This document shows positions 1-29,972 of a stretch of 64,000 bases of DNA, one piece after another; the first letter of the stretch is position 1, and every line of letters begins with the position of its first letter. This stretch comes from an uncultured Chloroflexia bacterium (lineage in GTDB: Bacteria > Chloroflexota > Limnocylindria > Limnocylindrales > CSP1-4). The stretch is from NCBI GenBank assembly GCA_963768655.1, contig CAVYIM010000003.1, positions 128,001-192,000 of the forward strand. The letters are read 5' to 3'. The notes beneath the pieces are model-generated. The model saw only the letters and a list, made by a program, of their open reading frames with translations, was not told where the DNA came from and searched no databases. Made by a program: the position numbers and the translations under genes.

Positions 1-1001
1 AAGTAGCGCTCGAAGGCGGCGAACGGACGTGTCCAGCAGAACATCGCCGGGAAGCCCTCGATTCGGAGGCCGGCTCTCAGCAGCGCGACCATGGCCCGGT
101 CGTTGGCGCCGGGCACCCACACGCTCGTGGCGCCACGCGGCTCGATGACCCTCATGAGATGACCGATGACGGGCGCGGTCAGGGTTTCGTCCAGGAGCGC
201 GACCGGCCCGAACCGCCCCACCTGGGACGAGTAGCCGTAGCCGAGTGGCTCACCGCTGCTGGTTCGGTACAGGAAGCCCGTGCGGCCCTGGAGCCGCAGG
301 AAGTCGTGGTCTGACTGGTGGGCGTAGCCGAGCACCTCGCGGTCGATGCCATCGATCGTCTGGCGCAGCTCGGCCTTGCCGGGAGCGGCCGGGTTGCGGT
401 GCGAGATCAGCTCGGGCGGCTCGAGAGCGATGGCCTCGATCCCTTCCGGCAGAGACGGCAGCACCGGCGGCGAGCCTGGCCGGCCGACGAGGTTGAAGAC
501 GGGCAGCCGGGCCACGATCCCCAGCTTGCTGTAGAGGGCGTTGGAGATCGGTTGGGCGCTGTCGGTGCACGTCGCCAGTACGCCCGGCCGGCGGCCGATG
601 GTCGGGCCGTCCCTCCAGTTGCCCGCCGCGTCGCCCGCGCCATCCGCCTCGGGGGCGGAAGGCAGAACCAGCGACAGCAGCGCCCGCCCTATGCCCCGAT
701 GCTGCTCCGCCGGCAGGACGTAGAGCTGCGAGAGGAACCACACGTGCTCGCGCTGCAGCCCGATCCCGAAACCCACGATCCGTTCGCTCGGGTCGCGCGG
801 CGAGGACTTCACCGCCACCCGAAAGTGGCCCGGGTCCGTGGCCAGGAGATGCTCGCCCAGGCGCATGGCCGGCTCCAGGACGGGTGGCGGCAGCGGCTGA
901 CCGAGGCGTGACATGTAGTCGTTCACGGAGGCGTGCCAGACCAGCGCACAATCGGCCAGCTCCTCGGGCCGCGGCGGACGGTAGGTGACTCCTTCCGTCA
1001 T
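1..1001 (-). CDS. GNAT-family N-acetyltransferase (3' end runs off the window)
   Basis: Not in the ORF track; translated by hand from ATG 1001 (ATGA overlap with the prfB stop): MTEGVTYRPPRPEELADC...WFLSQLYVLPAEQHRGIGRALL... QxxGxG acetyl-CoA motif A; frame open to the window edge. Confidence 0.8.
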   Translation of the reverse strand, partial: MTEGVTYRPPRPEELADCALVWHASVNDYMSRLGQPLPPPVLEPAMRLGEHLLATDPGHFRVAVKSSPRDPSERIVGFGIGLQREHVWFLSQLYVLPAEQHRGIGRALLSLVLPSAPEADGAGDAAGNWRDGPTIGRRPGVLATCTDSAQPISNALYSKLGIVARLPVFNLVGRPGSPPVLPSLPEGIEAIALEPPELISHRNPAAPGKAELRQTIDGIDREVLGYAHQSDHDFLRLQGRTGFLYRTSSGEPLGYGYSSQVGRFGPVALLDETLTAPVIGHLMRVIEPRGATSVWVPGANDRAMVALLRAGLRIEGFPAMFCWTRPFAAFERY

Positions 1002-2129
1002 CGATCGTCCGGCCCGGGCCGGCTGCCGGCGACGACGGCCCCGGTGGCCTCGCGTTCGAGCTCGGCCTGCATGAAGGTGTCCAGGTCGCCGTCGAGGACC
1101 GCCGCAGTGTTGCCCGTCTCCACCTCCGTCCGGTGGTCCTTGACCATCTGGTATGGGTGGAGGACGTAGCTCCTGATCTGGTTGCCCCAACCCGCCTCGA
1201 CGTGCTCCCCGCGAAGCTTGCGGATCTCGGCCTCGTGCTCCTCCACAGCCCGTTCCAGGAGTCGAGCCTGAAGGATCTTGGCGGCGGTGTCCTTGTTCTG
1301 CGTCTGGGAGCGTTCGTTCTGGCTCTGGGCGACGATGCCTGTGGGGACGTGGGTCAGACGCACGGCCGAGTCCGTCTTGTTGACGTGCTGGCCGCCGGCC
1401 CCGGTGGCGCGGAAGGTGTCGATGCGGATCTCGTCCCAGTTCAGTTCCACCTCGACGTCGCTCTCGACTTCCGGGAGCACCTCCACGAGGGCGAAGGTCG
1501 TGTGCCGCCGCTTCTGAGAATCGAAGGGGCTGATTCGGACCAGGCGGTGGACGCCGCGCTCGGCCTTGAGATAGCCGTAGGCGGCCCGCCCATCGACGGC
1601 CACGGTGACGCTCTTGATTCCGGTCTCCTCACCCTCGGTTTGATCGAAGATCTCGGTGGCGAAGCGATGGCGCTCGGCCCAGCGAAGGTACATCCGCAGC
1701 AGCATCTCGGCCCAATCGGTGGCTTCGGTGCCGCCCGCGCCCGCGCTGATAGTCAGCAGAGCATTGCGCTGGTCGTATTCGCCGCCGAAGAGCAGCTCAC
1801 GACGGGCCCGGCCGTAGTCCGCGGCCAGCTGCCGAGCCTCCGTGTCGACGTCGGCCAGGACGCTCTGGTCGTCTTCGTCCTGGGCCAGCTCGAGCAGCTC
1901 GATCGTGGAGCGGGCGCGCAATTCGAGGTTGCGCCAGAGCCCGAGCTCCTCGCGAAGACCCTCTGCTTCGCGCAGCACCTTCTTGGCCACGCGCTGGTCG
2001 TCCCAGAACCCGGGCTCGCCTACGGCAGCGTCCAGCGCGGCCAGACGGCCTTCCTTGCTGGAAAGGTCAAAGACGCCCCGAGGTCGCCTGGATCCTCTGG
2101 ACCAGGTCGCGGATCTCGGCCGGTTCCAC
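998..2129 (-). CDS. prfB: Peptide chain release factor 2 with programmed +1 frameshift
   Basis: SPF (RISPFD) and GGQ motifs. First segment GTG 2129 (VEPAEIRDLVQRIQATSGRL) ends in CTT TGA C at 2072-2066; the +1 frame continues DLSSKEGRL...FWDDQ into ORF 998..1990. Confidence 0.96.
2066..2081 (-). promoter_or_regulatory. RF2 autoregulatory +1 frameshift site
   Basis: Minus strand TCGGGG-CGT-CTT-TGA-C: internal SD-like GGGG 3 nt before the canonical CTTTGAC. Confidence 0.92.
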
Positions 2130-2353
2130 TAATACCGGCCTCGGGCGTCCTGGAGAAGGATCGGTCGGAGCTCGATGAGACGCAGCGCGCTCTTGCTCCG
2201 GGCGACTACGGGGTTCACGCAGGGGCAGTAGATGTTGTGTGGGCAGACACCGCAGTTCCCGTCGCAGTCGAGCGCGGCCGCATAACTGCAATTCCGGCAG
2301 TCGCGCTCGCAGGCGATGAGATCGATGAACGCCGCTTCCTCTGCCTGCTTCAA
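2129..2353 (-). CDS. Small Cys-rich protein (74 aa, 8 Cys, two CxxxCxxC plus CxC), putative metal/Fe-S binder
   Basis: GAGGAG RBS then TTG at 2353: MKQAEEAAFIDLIACERDCRNCSYAAALDCDGNCGVCPHNIYCPCVNP...; its TAG overlaps the prfB GTG (TAGTG). Confidence 0.7.
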   Translation of the reverse strand: MKQAEEAAFIDLIACERDCRNCSYAAALDCDGNCGVCPHNIYCPCVNPVVARSKSALRLIELRPILLQDARGRY

Positions 2354-2436
2354 CTCTCTCCTCGTTGTGTGACGGCACAACCCCTCAGGCCTCCCCGCGA
2401 CGGCCTGACGGGGACCGCAACGGGTATCTCGCGGCG

Positions 2437-2465
2437 AGTATACGGGCTCAATTCAGCGCAGCCAA
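2437..2465 (-). promoter_or_regulatory. Putative sigma70 promoter for the Cys-ORF/prfB/GNAT unit
   Basis: TTGGCT-N17-TATACT on the minus strand. Confidence 0.55.
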
Positions 2466-2612
2466 GAGGTCAATTCATCAGTTTGGCGAGAAATCACCGC
2501 ATAGTGCCGTCTGCCGCCCGGATTGGCTCGAGTTACCGCCTGAACAGGCAGCTGATGGCGGGGCGCGGAGTTGCTTCGGCAAGCCGGCGCCAGGCCCTCG
2601 ACGGAGCTCGGC

Positions 2613-3746
2613 CTAGTGTCCCGAGCCGCTGCAGGGTAATTGGTTGGCAGCTACGATTTGGCGATGCCGAACCATCCAGCGCCACCATTGGTCATCAGCG
2701 AGTCTGAACGAGCATCCCTACTGGCCCTGATACGAGCGGGTACGACCGAGCAACGACTCGCGATGCGGGCCCGGATCGTGCTTGCGGCAGCGGACGGCAT
2801 CGCGAACGAGCGGATAGCGGCCGAGATCGGGGTGAACCCGTTGACGGTGCGCGACTGGCGTGCTCGTTTCGAGGCCGACCGCATGGCCGGTCTGGCCGAT
2901 GCTCCACGCCCAGGCCGCGAACCCACCTATGACCGGGCCGCTCGGGACCGGGTCATCGCCTTCACCTTGGAGCCGCCGCCGTTCGGGACCAGCCACTGGA
3001 GTTCGCGAGCGATGGCTGCCCGGACAGGCATCAGTGTCACGACCATCCAGCGCATCTGGCGCGAGGCTGGTCTCAAGCCGCATCGGGTCGAGACGTTCAA
3101 GTTCAGCACCGATCCCGATCTTGTGGCCAAGGTCCGCGATGTCGTGGGGCTCTATCTCGCGCCGCCCGAGCGGGCTATCGTGCTGTCCGTTGACGAGAAG
3201 ACCCAGATCCAGGCTCTCGATCGAACGGCCCCGATGCTGCCCATGAAGCCCGGCCAGGTGGAGCGCCACACCCACGACTACAAACGGAACGGCACCACCC
3301 ACCTCTTTGCCGCTCTGGAAGTCGCCACCGGCAAGGTCACCACGCAGACCCGCACCCACCACACCGGCGCCGACTTCCTGGCCTTCCTGGCGCAGGTTGA
3401 GCGAGCCTATCCCGAGAAAGACCTCGCAGTCGTGCTCGACAACGTCAGCTCACACAAGACGCCAGACGTCGGAAAGTGGCTCGAGGCTCATCCGCGGGTG
3501 AGCTTCCATTTCACCCCGACCAGCGCGTCCTGGATGAACCAGATCGAGACCTGGTTCGGCATCCTGAGCCGTCAGGCCATCCGCCGTGGCAGCTTTCGCT
3601 CGGTCAAGGAACTCGTCGCGATGATCAACGGCTTCACGGCGCAATGGAACGAGGGTGCAACGCCCTTTCTCTGGGTCAAGACGGCCGACCAGATCCTGGC
3701 TAAGGCTGTGCGCAAGCCGTCAGCTATCGGCGAATTGGGACACTAG
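2613..3746. mobile_element. IS630-family insertion sequence
   Basis: Ends CTAGTGTCCC (2613) and GGGACACTAG (3746) are inverted copies with partial IR match further in; TA/CTAG target typical of IS630; contains a DDE transposase. Confidence 0.9.
2664..3746 (+). CDS. IS630-family transposase
   Basis: N-terminal HTHs (RARIVL, DAPRPGR, HWSSR), catalytic motifs VDEK, VLDNVSSHK and SWMNQIETWF. Confidence 0.93.
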   Translation: MPNHPAPPLVISESERASLLALIRAGTTEQRLAMRARIVLAAADGIANERIAAEIGVNPLTVRDWRARFEADRMAGLADAPRPGREPTYDRAARDRVIAFTLEPPPFGTSHWSSRAMAARTGISVTTIQRIWREAGLKPHRVETFKFSTDPDLVAKVRDVVGLYLAPPERAIVLSVDEKTQIQALDRTAPMLPMKPGQVERHTHDYKRNGTTHLFAALEVATGKVTTQTRTHHTGADFLAFLAQVERAYPEKDLAVVLDNVSSHKTPDVGKWLEAHPRVSFHFTPTSASWMNQIETWFGILSRQAIRRGSFRSVKELVAMINGFTAQWNEGATPFLWVKTADQILAKAVRKPSAIGELGH

Positions 3747-4455
3747 CTAGAAGCCGGGCTCGCCACGGCGTTCGGCGCGCCCGTCGGGGTCGCGTTGGCC
3801 GAAGGCGTCGACGCTGGCGCGCCGACCGAGGAGGCGGTCTGAGCGGACGGCGGGCCGGCTTCCAGGAACGCGTACTCGCCCAGAGCGCCCAGTTCGTGCA
3901 TGAGGGCGTCGAAGTGCATCGGCTCCTCGCTGTCGGCCGGGCTGGTCGTGGTTGGCGAGCCCCATCCCTCGATCCCTTGATCCGCGGCCAGGAGCAGGAC
4001 GCGCAACATGTGGGTACGGTCTGACACGAAGAGGGCGGTGTGGAGCCCGTGCTGGTCGAACAGGGCGCGGACGTTGCGGATGGACTCGAGGGTCGTGGCG
4101 CCGGTCGTCTCGGCCAGGATCGCGGAGGCGGGCACGCCCCTGGCTTCGGCGTAACTCCGCTCGGTGGCCGCCTCGGTGACGCGGTCGCCGGGCTGCTTGC
4201 CGCCCGTGACCACGAACCAGGGGGCGTAGCCCTGCTTGTACAGGTCGATCGCGTGATCGAGTCGCGCGGCGAGCACGGCCGAGGGGCGGCCGTTGTACTG
4301 GGCCGCACCTAGAACCACGATGGCGTCGACGGCGCGGCGGCTGTCCTGCTGGCCCACGTCCCAGATCCGGTAAGCGGTGTAGGCGGTCAGGCCGATGGCG
4401 CCGATGACGAAGGCCAGTGCCACGAGCGCCAGATCCCGCAGACGCGCTTTCCAGG

Positions 4456-4459
<4 letters not shown>
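3743..4459 (-). CDS. YdcF/SanA (DUF218) family membrane-anchored protein
   Basis: N-terminal TM, DAIVVLGAA, VTGG, TTLES, VSDRTHMLR. GTG start overlaps the secA stop. Confidence 0.85.
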
Positions 4460-7434
<2,975 letters not shown>

Positions 7435-28893: not shown

Positions 28894-29972
28894 TCGACTC
28901 CAAGCTCGTCGAGATCGCGGCCCAGTACGACGCCATGAACGCCGAGCTGCTCCTGCCCGAGACGGCGGCCGATCCGGCCGCGCTCAAGCGCCTGGGCAAG
29001 GAGCTGGCCCAGATCGAGCCCGTCGTCACCGCCTGGCGCGAGCTCAGCGAGATCCGCAAGGAGCTCGCCGAGGCGATCGAGATGCGCGATTCGGGCGACG
29101 AGGAGATGCACGACTTGGCCCAGGACGAGGTCCGAAATCTGGAGGCGCGAGAGACGGAGCTGGTCGAGCGGCTCCGCGTGCTGCTGCTCCCGCGCGACCC
29201 CAACGACGAGAAGAGCGTGATCCTGGAAATTCGGGCCGGGACGGGCGGCGACGAGGCCAAGCTCTTCGCCGCGGAGCTGCTTCGGATGTATCTGCGCTAC
29301 GCCGAGCGCCACCGGATGCCGGCGGAGGTCCTGAACGCGGATGAGAACGGCATCGGCGGGATCGGCGAGGCCATCGTCGAAATCTCCTCGCGGGGCGCCT
29401 ACAGCCGGCTCAAGTTCGAGGCCGGCGTCCACCGCGTCCAGCGCATCCCGGTGACGGAGTCGAGCGGCCGCATCCACACCTCGACGGCGACGGTCGCGGT
29501 GATGCCTGAGGCCGAAGAGGTCGACATCGAGATCGACGAGAAGGACATCCGGGTCGACGTCTACCGCTCCACCGGCCACGGCGGGCAGTCGGTCAACACC
29601 ACCGACTCGGCAGTTCGGATCACCCACATGCCGAGCGGCCTCGTCGTCGCCATCCAGGACGAGAAGAGCCAGATCAAGAACAAGGCCAAGGCCATGGCCG
29701 TCCTGCGCAGCCGGCTGCTCGATCGCGAGCGGGCCAAGGCGGCCGCGACGGAGTCGGCGCTGAGGCGGAGCATGGTCGGCTCGGGCGAACGGTCCGAGAA
29801 GGTCCGGACCTACAACTTCCCGCAGGATCGCCTGACCGACCACCGCATCGGGCTCGACCTGCACAACCTGCCCGGGGTCATGGACGGCGACATCGACAGG
29901 CTGATCGACGCCCTGAGCAACACGTACCAGGCCGAGCTGCTCGCGTCGCTGGGCGAAGGGTCGAAGGGATGA
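28890..29972 (+). CDS. prfA: Peptide chain release factor 1
   Basis: PVT motif (RIPVTES), GGQSVNTT, RTYNFPQ. Confidence 0.96.
   Translation: MIDSKLVEIAAQYDAMNAELLLPETAADPAALKRLGKELAQIEPVVTAWRELSEIRKELAEAIEMRDSGDEEMHDLAQDEVRNLEARETELVERLRVLLLPRDPNDEKSVILEIRAGTGGDEAKLFAAELLRMYLRYAERHRMPAEVLNADENGIGGIGEAIVEISSRGAYSRLKFEAGVHRVQRIPVTESSGRIHTSTATVAVMPEAEEVDIEIDEKDIRVDVYRSTGHGGQSVNTTDSAVRITHMPSGLVVAIQDEKSQIKNKAKAMAVLRSRLLDRERAKAAATESALRRSMVGSGERSEKVRTYNFPQDRLTDHRIGLDLHNLPGVMDGDIDRLIDALSNTYQAELLASLGEGSKG

What the first reader, a model, noticed from the sequence alone, without database searches (positions are those of the whole stretch)
2129..2353. Double-CxxxCxxC mini-protein translationally coupled to frameshift-regulated prfB
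Seen: a 74-aa ORF with its own promoter and RBS, 8 Cys as CERDCRNC, CDGNCGVC and CPC, whose TAG overlaps the prfB GTG. I see no clear SD for prfB itself. Known: CxxxCxxC ligates [4Fe-4S] in radical SAM enzymes, and Cys-rich peptides (SCIFF/ranthipeptides) are radical SAM substrates; prfB usually follows secA directly. Inference: a metal/redox-binding protein or leader ORF that gates RF2 initiation, adding a control layer above the +1 frameshift. I do not recognise the family.
Basis: partly seen in the sequence, partly recalled or inferred. Interest (0 to 1): 0.7.

Follow-up and report, generated by a model that had tools for sequence, protein, structure and literature searches.

The report
Eight-cysteine mini-protein gene coupled to prfB
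A real, very strongly conserved gene for a 74-residue protein with eight invariant cysteines sits directly in front of, and touching, the release-factor-2 gene in one class of soil and peat Chloroflexota; it belongs to no described family and its function is untested.

Summary
On the minus strand, 2353..2129 encodes a 74-aa protein (TTG start, GAGGAG Shine-Dalgarno, 8 Cys). Its TAG shares one base with the GTG of a +1-frameshift prfB.

It is a real gene. dN/dS is 0.05-0.15 while synonymous sites are near saturation, and all 8 Cys are invariant in 44 aligned sequences.

No Pfam, NCBIfam or PDB sequence match was found. Only 59 clusters of 1.84 billion representatives match.

In every evaluable locus the gene lies immediately upstream of prfB, with the stop overlapping, abutting or at most 12 nt from the start. 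This held in 20/20, 33/33 and 78/80 loci; the other two of 80 run off their contigs. A conserved promoter precedes it.

The genome-reduced sister family keeps only an 18-codon vestige without the Cys core.

The same Cys module is fused to ParB-like proteins elsewhere.

My reading is a new stand-alone metal-binding module made as the first cistron of a translationally coupled prfB operon. Metal binding, any RF2 link and any special gating are all untested.

The parts
2437..2465 (-). sigma-70-like promoter of the small gene (TTGGCT, 17 nt, TATACT)
   Evidence: Only promoter-like site in 1900..2700. In 21 aligned upstream regions from several genera, CTTGG is kept in 19 and TATACT in 20.
2358..2363 (-). 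Shine-Dalgarno GAGGAG of the small gene, 4 nt before the TTG
   Evidence: Read. A GAGG-type motif precedes the inferred start in all 41 family-f1 loci listed.
2129..2353 (-). small gene: 74 codons plus TAG (stop at 2131..2129)
   Evidence: dN/dS 0.05-0.15. 433 close homologues. An MKQ start is shared by families f1 and f3, and MKE by f4.
2219..2311 (-). Cys-rich core, residues 15-45: C-x3-C-x2-C-x7-C-x3-C-x2-C-x5-C-x-C
   Evidence: All 8 Cys plus E16, L28 and P44 are invariant in 44 sequences. This part aligns to the N-terminus of a ParB-like protein (hhalign 92.4%, E 5.2e-7).
2139..2142 (-). GAGG, a possible Shine-Dalgarno of prfB inside the last codons of the small gene, 9 nt before the GTG
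   Evidence: Read. GAGGCCG is present in 20 of 20 same-genus loci printed.
2067..2129 (-). prfB frame 0: GTG (2129..2127), 20 codons, then in-frame TGA (2069..2067)
   Evidence: The GTG shares G2129 with the TAG of the small gene.
2066..2072 (-). +1 frameshift site CTT TGA C of prfB
   Evidence: Read. The same heptamer lies 59-62 nt after the small gene's stop in 78 of 80 loci; the other two end before it.
998..2068 (-). prfB +1 frame (356 codons plus stop), release factor 2
   Evidence: PCRF (1.3e-47) and RF-1 (2e-40) domains. Alignment A2.
3..1001 (-). GNAT acetyltransferase gene. Its ATG (1001..999) overlaps the prfB TGA (1000..998) as ATGA. The gene runs off the window.
   Evidence: Follows prfB in 76 of 80 loci. 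Not found after prfB in families f2, f3 and f4 within the flanks held.
2614..2623 (+). Left inverted end (CTAGTGTCCC) of an IS630-family insertion. Its right end is GGGACACTAG at about 3740..3749. The insertion sits about 150 nt upstream of the promoter and is specific to this genome.
   Evidence: Pfam DDE_3 plus HTH domains in the enclosed ORF. Homology to relatives breaks at 2616 and resumes at 3803. No IS630 match in 80 related loci.
2640..3746 (+). IS630-family transposase ORF (368 aa) inside that insertion
   Evidence: PF13358 DDE_3 at 3.3e-23, plus several HTH domains.
3743..4498 (-). DUF218 (SanA/ElyC-like) gene, the usual upstream neighbour in this family
   Evidence: PF02698 at 4e-28. 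Weak SanA/ElyC matches. Upstream of the small gene in 72 of 80 loci.
4456..7434 (-). secA
   Evidence: Five SecA Pfam domains. Upstream in the same orientation in the related loci.

Best explanation
The ORF is a real gene for a 74-residue protein. It is the stand-alone form of a previously undescribed eight-cysteine module, confined to the Chloroflexota class Limnocylindria.

Shown:
- Strong purifying selection over its whole length, with eight invariant Cys.
- Its own conserved promoter and Shine-Dalgarno.
- A fixed position as the cistron directly before frameshift-type prfB, with the stop overlapping, abutting or at most 12 nt from the prfB start.

Inferred:
- The cysteines hold two metal centres. 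These could be two Zn(Cys)4 sites, for example C19/C22/C34/C37 plus C15/C30/C43/C45, or Fe-S clusters. The stretch C30..C34-x2-C37-x5-C43 resembles the C..C-x2-C-x5-C pattern of WhiB- and AddB-type [4Fe-4S] sites; that comparison is recalled, not tested.
- Ribosomes finishing the small cistron re-initiate at the touching prfB start. RF2 output would then be tied to translation of the small gene, upstream of the unchanged +1 frameshift autoregulation.
- The protein is a functional metal- or redox-dependent binding module rather than a mere leader. The same module is fused to ParB-like DNA-binding proteins elsewhere, so it is probably an interaction or sensor domain. Its partner (RF2, ribosome, nucleic acid) is unknown.
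For: Gene reality:
- For the window gene against eight relatives, pN is 0.03-0.14, pS is 0.43-0.60 and w is 0.05-0.15. The mean over 630 pairs is pN 0.064 and pS 0.476.
- 433 homologues were found; the best 120 are 88-99% identical.
- The start was chosen in each locus as the start codon with a GAGG-type motif a few nt upstream. It lies 14-15 codons before the first Cys in 41 of 41 f1 loci. The products then begin MKQ, MKS or MR in f1, MKQ in f3 and MKE in f4.

Cysteines:
- C15, C19, C22, C30, C34, C37, C43 and C45 are invariant in 24 and in 44 sequences, including the divergent P0170 and the ParB fusion P0178.

Linkage to prfB:
- TAGTG overlap in 20 of 20 same-genus loci.
- The small gene is followed by CTTTGAC in 33 of 33 further loci from families f1, f3 and f4. 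In f3 the prfB TTG lies 11 nt inside the small gene's end.
- CTTTGAC lies 59-62 nt after the stop in 78 of 80 named genomes; the other two contigs end first.

Promoter: conserved CTTGG(C/A)-N17-TATACT.

Taxonomic range:
- f1 23/23, f3 16/16, f4 2/2, f2 0/4. Only 4 weak hits (E 0.0016-0.009) occur in the rest of 401 phylum genomes.
- Record titles read Candidatus Limnocylindrales, Chloroflexi or Chloroflexota.
- 59 of 1.84 billion representatives match.

Module character: hhalign gives 92.4% probability and E 5.2e-7 over 58 columns to the N-terminus of a ParB_N protein. P0178 has the same arrangement, with ParB_N at 1.9e-17.

Stop codon:
- UGA, the RF2-dependent stop, ends the small gene in only 7 of 80 loci, against 60% of 1369 long ORFs in this genome.
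- In the 34 loci where stop and start do not overlap, my count is TAG 30, TGA 3, TAA 1.
Against: - No metal, binding or expression measurement exists.
- Both AlphaFold2 models are unusable (mean pLDDT 47.3 and 51.4), so no fold comparison could be made.
- Coupling geometry of this kind is ordinary in this genome, and prfB has its own GAGG, so independent initiation is possible.
- A hairpin enclosing the junction is not better than shuffles. MFE is -31.2 against -27.8 +/- 3.4 kcal/mol, and 30 of 200 shuffles fold as well. It has no RNAalifold consensus in 99 sequences, and its pairing equals column shuffles (83.8% against 83.1%).
- The genome-reduced sister family (f2) lacks the Cys core altogether and still has a frameshift-type prfB. 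The protein is therefore dispensable for RF2 production.
- The stop-codon bias is counted over related genomes and is not an independent sample.
Confidence: 0.6

Rival explanations
1. The small protein acts directly on translation termination. It would be a lineage-specific partner of RF2: a chaperone, a regulator, or an ArfA/BrfA-like recruiter of RF2 to stalled ribosomes. On this view it is made in fixed proportion to RF2 because the two work together.
For: - The adjacency and coupling to prfB is invariant across three families.
- Small lineage-specific proteins that recruit RF2 are known: ArfA, and BrfA in Bacillus (PMC6881298; listing and start of abstract seen).
- This 88.6%-complete genome shows only two RF-1-domain genes, so no ArfB was found with that model.
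- tmRNA lies about 5 kb beyond the window start on the same contig.
Against: - The gene has an ordinary stop codon, and the scan finds no terminator-like site in 1900..2700. ArfA and BrfA are made from non-stop mRNAs; this feature is recalled, and is stated for arfA in the abstract of PMC10107115 listed.
- Net charge is about 0 (9 K+R, 9 D+E). The tail has 6 K+R against 2 D+E, so it is not the Lys-rich tail of ArfA.
- The sister family lost the Cys core but kept prfB.
- The homologous module occurs on ParB-like proteins that are unrelated to translation.
Confidence: 0.2
2. The protein is a redox- or metal-sensing regulator that works like a WhiB-type Fe-S protein or a zinc-based sensor. It would bind DNA, RNA polymerase or another protein, and merely share an operon with prfB.
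For: - Eight invariant Cys include a C..C-x2-C-x5-C stretch.
- The module plus its following helix is fused N-terminally to ParB_N/HTH DNA-binding proteins in two other Chloroflexota.
- A weak hit aligns residues 32-66 with the C-terminal Cys cluster of a PD-(D/E)XK nuclease.
Against: - No match to WhiB or any other Pfam model, even at E 10, in all 24 members scanned.
- No DNA-binding motif was recognised.
- The fixed position before prfB is then unexplained.
- The two ParB fusions are rare: only the query itself was found with the N-terminal region.
Confidence: 0.15
3. The ORF is a pure leader. Only the act of translating it matters, for loading ribosomes onto prfB, and the peptide has no function.
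For: - In the genome-reduced family f2, 21 of 27 evaluable loci keep an 18-codon ORF of variable sequence (MKQQNPVVAFVRPSERPR, MSSESPVGAAVRLGEGAG and others). Its TGA overlaps the prfB start as GTGA or ATGA.
- The contact of stop and start is kept everywhere.
Against: - dN/dS is 0.05-0.15 over all 74 codons with near-saturated synonymous sites.
- The eight Cys are invariant, and the module recurs fused to other proteins.
- In f2 the start codon is lost in 4 of 27 loci. An open 18-codon frame is also not unlikely by chance at 62% G+C.
Confidence: 0.03
4. The ORF is a precursor peptide of a radical-SAM-modified natural product (SCIFF- or ranthipeptide-like).
For: - It is Cys-rich, small and highly conserved, as SCIFF is (the SCIFF comparison is recalled).
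- Family f3 has a Pro/Ser/Thr-rich N-terminal extension that could pass for a leader.
- One SPASM-domain gene exists in the genome.
Against: - No SCIFF or other NCBIfam or Pfam match.
- The neighbours in 80 loci are secA, DUF218, prfB and GNAT, with no maturase, protease or exporter among them.
- The single SPASM gene lies about 124 kb away.
- No match to the SCIFF maturase model reaches its cut-off; the best is 18.9 bits against 425.
- Conservation extends over the whole length, including the tail.
Confidence: 0.02

Closest known systems
Translationally coupled operon junctions (overlapping stop/start, termination-reinitiation)
   Same: The stop of the upstream cistron overlaps or abuts the start of the downstream one: TAGTG here, and TGATG, TAATG, TAG|GTG or a 14-nt overlap in relatives.
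   Different: The downstream gene is the autoregulated, +1-frameshifted prfB, and the partner is an undescribed Cys8 protein. UGA is rare as the upstream stop (7 of 80). I found no paper describing such a pair: searches returned one unrelated paper each.
WhiB-like (Wbl) [4Fe-4S] proteins of Actinobacteria
   Same: Both are small cytoplasmic Cys-rich proteins. The stretch C30..C34-x2-C37-x5-C43 fits the Wbl pattern C-Xn-C-X2-C-X5-C (pattern recalled).
   Different: No Pfam WhiB match even at E 10. There are eight Cys, not four. The G[VI]WGG turn (recalled) is not in the sequence. The phylum is different.
Zinc-binding anti-sigma (ZAS) H-x3-C-x2-C sites and cross-braced two-zinc modules
   Same: C15-x3-C19-x2-C22 and C30-x3-C34-x2-C37 have the i, i+4, i+7 spacing of the ZAS motif (recalled). 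Two C-x2-C knuckles 11 residues apart could form a zinc-ribbon-like site.
   Different: No zf-HC2 or other zinc-finger model matches. No sigma factor gene lies next to it. No metal is known.
ArfA / BrfA, small RF2-recruiting rescue factors
   Same: About 70 residues, lineage-specific, and functionally tied to RF2 (PMC6881298; listing and start of abstract).
   Different: Normal stop codon, no terminator-like site found by the scan, near-neutral charge, Cys-rich, and constitutively coupled to prfB.
SCIFF / ranthipeptide precursors and radical SAM C-x3-C-x2-C
   Same: Cys-rich and highly conserved, with the same C-x3-C-x2-C spacing as the radical SAM cluster motif.
   Different: 74 aa cannot be a radical SAM enzyme. 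There is no model hit, no adjacent maturase and no SCIFF maturase over cut-off.
N-terminal Cys module of two ParB_N-domain proteins in other Chloroflexota (P0178; L177:310-1275)
   Same: Homologous over the Cys core and the following helix (hmmsearch E 7.2e-4; hhalign 92.4%, E 5.2e-7). All eight Cys align.
   Different: In those proteins it is a domain of a 321-441-aa ParB-like protein, next to SSB-like genes. Here it is a free-standing protein beside prfB. The spacing of the first three Cys differs in L177 (C-x6-C-x2-C).

Membership tests
Radical SAM enzymes | Radical_SAM domain (PF04055) of some 200 or more residues that carries the C-x3-C-x2-C cluster loop | tested here: not met
   0 Pfam families at E up to 10 for the 74- and 83-aa forms and for all 24 members of A1. 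The protein has 74 residues.
SCIFF / ranthipeptide precursors | Match to the curated precursor model | tested here: not met
   0 NCBIfam families at E up to 10.
SCIFF / ranthipeptide precursors | Adjacent radical SAM/SPASM maturase | tested here: not met
   The neighbours in 80 loci are secA, DUF218, prfB and GNAT. The only SPASM match in the genome is about 124 kb away. TIGR03974 scores at best 18.9 bits against a cut-off of 425.
WhiB-like proteins | Match to the Whib Pfam model | tested here: not met
   No Pfam match.
WhiB-like proteins | C-Xn-C-X2-C-X5-C cysteine pattern (recalled definition) | tested here: met
   C30, C34, C37 and C43 have this spacing. The spacing alone does not show a cluster.
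WhiB-like proteins | Bound [4Fe-4S] cluster | not testable with these tools
   Needs purified protein.
2[4Fe-4S] clostridial-type ferredoxins | Two C-x2-C-x2-C-x3-C-P motifs, with a Fer4 Pfam match | tested here: not met
   The spacing here is C-x3-C-x2-C. No Fer4 match.
ArfA/BrfA-type RF2-dependent rescue factors | Synthesis from a non-stop mRNA (hairpin or terminator inside the ORF) and a basic C-terminal tail (recalled definitions) | tested here: not met
   The ORF ends in TAG. The scan finds 0 terminator-like sites in 1900..2700. The whole protein has 9 K+R and 9 D+E, and the tail 6 against 2.
ArfA/BrfA-type RF2-dependent rescue factors | Binds RF2 on the ribosome | not testable with these tools
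   Needs biochemistry.
Translationally coupled cistron pair | Stop of the upstream cistron overlapping or within a few nt of the downstream start, conserved among relatives | tested here: met
   TAGTG in the window. Same in 20/20, 33/33 and 78/80 loci, with overlap, abutment or at most 12 nt between them.
Translationally coupled cistron pair | Downstream translation depends on upstream translation | not testable with these tools
   Needs a reporter. A masking structure is not supported, and prfB has its own GAGG.
Frameshift-autoregulated prfB | CTT TGA C site about 20-25 codons into frame 0, with RF2 domains in the +1 frame | tested here: met
   Site at 2072..2066 after 20 codons. PCRF and RF-1 domains in the +1 frame.

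The most novel reading that the evidence does not exclude
The Cys8 protein would be a dedicated, metal- or redox-sensitive component of translation termination in Limnocylindria, and its cistron a purpose-built loading ramp for RF2 synthesis.

Its stop is almost always UAG or UAA (73 of 80 loci). Release at the ramp, and hence re-initiation on prfB, would then depend on RF1 and not on RF2. This would keep the RF2 frameshift feedback free of a self-defeating dependence on RF2.

The protein itself, made in fixed ratio to RF2, would bind RF2 or the ribosome and tune termination to the cell's metal or redox state.
Probability: 0.1. Interest if true: 0.75.

Novelty: new variant of a known kind. Interest (0 to 1): 0.45.

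Why it matters
Limnocylindria are abundant, uncultured bacteria of soil, peat and fresh water. This gene is one of their most conserved small genes: 88-99% protein identity among the 120 best hits. Every source name seen for a member is "hypothetical protein".

It defines a new eight-cysteine module with no Pfam, NCBIfam or PDB sequence match. The module also occurs fused to ParB-like proteins.

It is an operon partner of release factor 2 conserved across a whole class, and my searches found no description of such a pair. It is also a natural case in which an autoregulated frameshift gene is fed by an upstream cistron.

If the protein binds RF2 or the ribosome, it would be a new termination-linked metalloprotein. 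If not, it is still a clean new family for structural and metal-binding work, with a natural deletion series in the genome-reduced sister family.

Tried and rejected
- **Structure prediction.** Two AlphaFold2 runs on alignments of 24 and 44 sequences gave mean pLDDT 47.3 and 51.4. I ran no fold search, because matches to such models are meaningless.
- **Complex prediction.** RF2 (alignment A2) with the small protein (A1) and two Zn gave scores of 0.00 and 0.00 against a mark of 0.32. The verdict was 'no answer', and the partner's own fold was uncertain. This is no evidence either way.
- **ESM Atlas.** Only unnamed Chloroflexota clusters, its own family, at 0.91-0.93.
- **PDB sequence search with the profile.** Best E 0.43.
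- **Rfam on 1900..2700.** Two chance-level matches far below gathering score.
- **Phage and plasmid collections.** No match in phages, and one E 0.8 match in plasmids.
- **RNA structure around the junction.** Tested three ways, it is not better than chance.
- **Public runs.**
  - No run held more than 0.13 of the sampled words.
  - In one peat metatranscriptome, contigs of relatives cover 1903-2117, 2088-2228 (across the stop/start junction), 2208-2333 and 2304-2531.
  - These are contigs, DNA may be present in the library, and one piece extends beyond the predicted promoter. I do not count this as proof of transcription or of a 5' end.
- **Wider search from the ParB fusion.** The N-terminus of L177's protein found only itself.
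- **Other weak phylum hits.** Those in L175, L178 and L179 do not carry the Cys pattern.
- **Paper searches.** They found nothing on this protein or on an ORF coupled to prfB. The Limnocylindria genome paper PMC13212565 has 0 occurrences of prfB, release factor or cysteine in its main text. Its supplements were not read.
- **Mistakes in my own calls.** translated the wrong frame and was not used. The script reports the first ORF that fits, not the longest. For L134 and L139 the 16-codon ORF MKSQYPVAVFVRSSAS, ending 3 nt before the prfB GTG, is my reading of the printed sequence.
Full report
**What is there**

The finding is on the minus strand. Read 5' to 3' on that strand, the region holds the following:
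- a promoter-like site, TTGGCT-17-TATACT, at 2465..2437;
- a 5' leader of about 80 nt;
- GAGGAG at 2363..2358;
- a TTG at 2353;
- 74 codons ending in TAG at 2131..2129.

The product has Cys at residues 15, 19, 22, 30, 34, 37, 43 and 45.

The G of the TAG is the first base of a GTG (2129..2127). This GTG opens a 20-codon frame that ends in CTT TGA C (2072..2066). The +1 frame then runs to 998 and carries PCRF and RF-1 domains. This is a classical frameshift-regulated prfB.

The one correction is that a GAGG lies 9 nt before the prfB GTG, inside the last codons of the small ORF.

**Is it a gene?**

Yes.
- A word-indexed search found 433 homologues. The best 120 are 88-99% identical and none has a Pfam domain.
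- Between the window gene and relatives from other genera, synonymous sites differ at 43-60% and non-synonymous sites at 3-14%. This gives w of 0.05-0.15. Over 630 pairs the mean pS is 0.476 and the mean pN is 0.064.
- I chose the start in each locus as the start codon with a GAGG-type motif a few nt upstream. In 41 of 41 loci of the window's family it lies 14-15 codons before the first Cys.
- The proteins then begin MKQ, MKS or MR in family f1, MKQ in f3 and MKE in f4.
- All eight Cys, with E16, L28 and P44, are invariant in 44 aligned sequences.

**Who has it, and where?**

In whole-genome searches it was found in:
- 23 of 24 other genomes of the genus;
- 23 of 23 genomes sampled from the family (f1);
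- 16 of 16 and 2 of 2 genomes of two further families of the class (f3, f4);
- 0 of 16 and 0 of 4 genomes of the sister family with 1.0-1.4 Mb genomes (f2);
- the rest of 401 genomes of the phylum only as four weak matches (E 0.0016-0.009).

Their titles read Candidatus Limnocylindrales, Chloroflexi or Chloroflexota. A few bins are labelled otherwise.

A profile search of 1.84 billion cluster representatives found only 59.

That assignment is my inference.

**Linkage to prfB**

- In 20 of 20 same-genus loci the stop is TAG, overlapping GTG as in the window.
- In 33 of 33 further loci from f1, f3 and f4 the small gene is followed at once by the prfB frameshift site.
  - In f3 the prfB TTG start lies 11 nt inside the end of the small gene.
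  - In f4 the start follows 0-10 nt after the stop.
- In 80 named genomes CTTTGAC lies 59-62 nt after the stop in 78. The other two contigs end 12 and 34 nt after it.

Synteny in those 80 loci is secA, DUF218 (72 of 80), the small gene, prfB (78 of 80) and GNAT (76 of 80). In f3 the order is secA, small gene, prfB, without DUF218 or GNAT in the flanks held.

Upstream regions of 21 loci from several genera share little apart from the Shine-Dalgarno and two promoter boxes: CTTGG in 19 of 21 and TATACT in 20 of 21. The gene therefore has its own promoter.

In the window alone, an IS630-family element (about 2614..3749) sits between DUF218 and that promoter.

**What it is not**

- No Pfam or NCBIfam model matches at E up to 10, for the window protein or for any of 24 members.
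- The PDB sequence search gave nothing below E 0.43.
- The ESM Atlas returned only its own unnamed clusters.
- It cannot be a radical SAM enzyme at 74 residues.
- A SCIFF-like precursor is unlikely.
  - No maturase lies beside it in 80 loci.
  - The single SPASM gene of the genome is about 124 kb away.
  - No SCIFF maturase reaches its cut-off.
- It lacks the hallmarks of ArfA/BrfA. It has a normal stop, the scan finds no terminator-like site, and its charge is near neutral.

**A relative in another setting**

One representative, P0178 (441 aa), carries the module at its N-terminus, followed by ParB_N and HTH_ParB domains.

One weak genome hit proved to be a 321-aa ParB_N protein whose first 69 residues align with residues 6-63 of the family. 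hhalign gives 92.4% probability and E 5.2e-7 over 58 columns. It lies beside SSB-like genes.

The eight-Cys unit with its following helix is therefore an autonomous module that can be attached to DNA-binding proteins.

Another weak hit aligns residues 32-66 with the C-terminal Cys cluster of a PD-(D/E)XK nuclease. That kind of site, as I recall, holds a [4Fe-4S] cluster in AddB- and Cas4-type nucleases.

The stretch C30..C34-x2-C37-x5-C43 has that spacing. Equally, the two C-x2-C knuckles could make a zinc-ribbon-like site. The sequence cannot decide between zinc and Fe-S.

**The sister family**

In f2, secA is followed after 54-77 nt by prfB, which has the same frameshift site.

In 21 of 27 evaluable loci that spacer holds an 18-codon ORF from GTG to a TGA that overlaps the prfB start as GTGA or ATGA.
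- Eight of these ORFs read MKQ(Q/H)xPVVA....
- This retains the MKQ start and the NPVVA that follows the Cys core in f1.
- The Cys core therefore looks deleted.
- The peptide varies freely between sub-groups.

Of the other six evaluable loci, four have lost the GTG and two have a 16-codon form. Four of the 31 loci could not be parsed.

This shows that the protein is dispensable for RF2 synthesis. Whether the remnant is kept for coupling or is simply decaying cannot be told. An open 18-codon frame is not unlikely by chance, and the TGA is fixed by the first two prfB codons.

In ten genomes of other classes prfB has the frameshift site but no such ORF. The gene before it is secA in three loci, one I took for ftsY in two, and something else in the rest.

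**Does it gate prfB?**

The geometry fits termination-reinitiation, and it is conserved. But such junctions are common here. Of 1369 long ORFs with coding-like composition, 173 end in ATGA and 148 in GTGA. prfB and the GNAT gene also overlap as ATGA. In addition, prfB has its own GAGG.

A nested stem-loop can be drawn with the stop and start in its loop. It is not better than chance.
- MFE is -31.2 against -27.8 +/- 3.4 kcal/mol for shuffles, z = -1.0.
- RNAalifold gives no consensus in 99 sequences.
- Pairing is 83.8% against 83.1% in column shuffles, with only a modest excess of covariation, which relatedness could explain.

One feature may be more than ordinary. The small gene ends in TAG in 69, TAA in 4 and TGA in 7 of 80 loci, while 60% of long ORFs in this genome end in TGA and 35% in TAG.
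- In the 34 loci where the stop does not overlap the start, so that the choice is free, I count TAG 30, TGA 3 and TAA 1.
- In f3 the stops are TAA in 8 and TAG in 2 of 10 loci.
- A stop that RF2 does not read would keep re-initiation on prfB independent of RF2 supply.
- The genomes are related, so this is a hint and not a test.

**Verdict**

It founds an undescribed, class-restricted family. It is almost certainly a metal-binding module, and it is expressed as the first cistron of a coupled operon with prfB.

That it adds a regulatory layer, or acts on RF2, is possible but unsupported.

Structure and complex predictions gave no usable answer. Public-run contigs give only a weak hint of RNA across the junction.

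Noticed in passing
window 2614..3749: An IS630-family element: a 368-aa DDE_3 transposase ORF (2640..3746, + strand) flanked by inverted ends CTAGTGTCCC and GGGACACTAG. It is inserted between the DUF218 gene and the promoter of the small gene. It is absent from all 80 related loci, and homology to relatives breaks at 2616 and resumes at 3803.
   Followed up: partly
L134-L164 (family f2), between secA and prfB: The genome-reduced sister family has lost DUF218, the Cys core and the downstream GNAT. In 21 of 27 evaluable loci it keeps an 18-codon ORF (MKQQNPVVAFVRPSERPR, MSSESPVGAAVRLGEGAG and variants) whose TGA overlaps the prfB start as GTGA or ATGA.
   Followed up: partly
window 998..1001: The prfB stop and the start of the next gene (a 333-aa GNAT acetyltransferase that runs off the window) overlap as ATGA. 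The operon is therefore small gene-prfB-GNAT, with both junctions overlapping. GNAT follows prfB in 76 of 80 f1 loci but was not found in the flanks of f2, f3 and f4 loci.
   Followed up: partly
L177:310-1275 (-) and protein P0178: Two ParB_N-domain proteins of other Chloroflexota carry the same eight-Cys module at their N-terminus. The L177 gene lies next to two SSB-like ORFs, which suggests a mobile or phage-derived region.
   Followed up: partly
L042-L047, L050-L053 (family f3): The f3 orthologues are 97-110 aa. A Pro/Ser/Thr-rich, length-variable insert follows the conserved MKQL(T/A) N-terminus, then a conserved VTRFRDP motif precedes the Cys core. The prfB TTG start lies inside the last four codons (LGRN) of the small gene.
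   Followed up: no
proteins P0151, P0162, P0122, P0123: Some database entries join the small protein to prfB frame 0 or to other frames. In P0151, for example, the stop is replaced and the reading continues into the RF2 leader. These may be assembly or gene-calling artefacts, or rare natural read-through fusions.
   Followed up: no
G000:C3:122850-123221 (about 5 kb before the window start): The tmRNA gene (127.9 bits) lies on the same strand a few kb downstream of prfB and GNAT. The genome shows only two RF-1-domain genes, so no ArfB-like gene was found with that model. The second RF-1-domain gene is at window 29514..29846 (+).
   Followed up: no
loci L084, L090, L110: Three contigs with the typical Limnocylindria secA-DUF218-small gene-prfB-GNAT arrangement sit in bins titled Patescibacteria group, Verrucomicrobiia and Methylomirabilota. 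These are probably mis-binned contigs.
   Followed up: no
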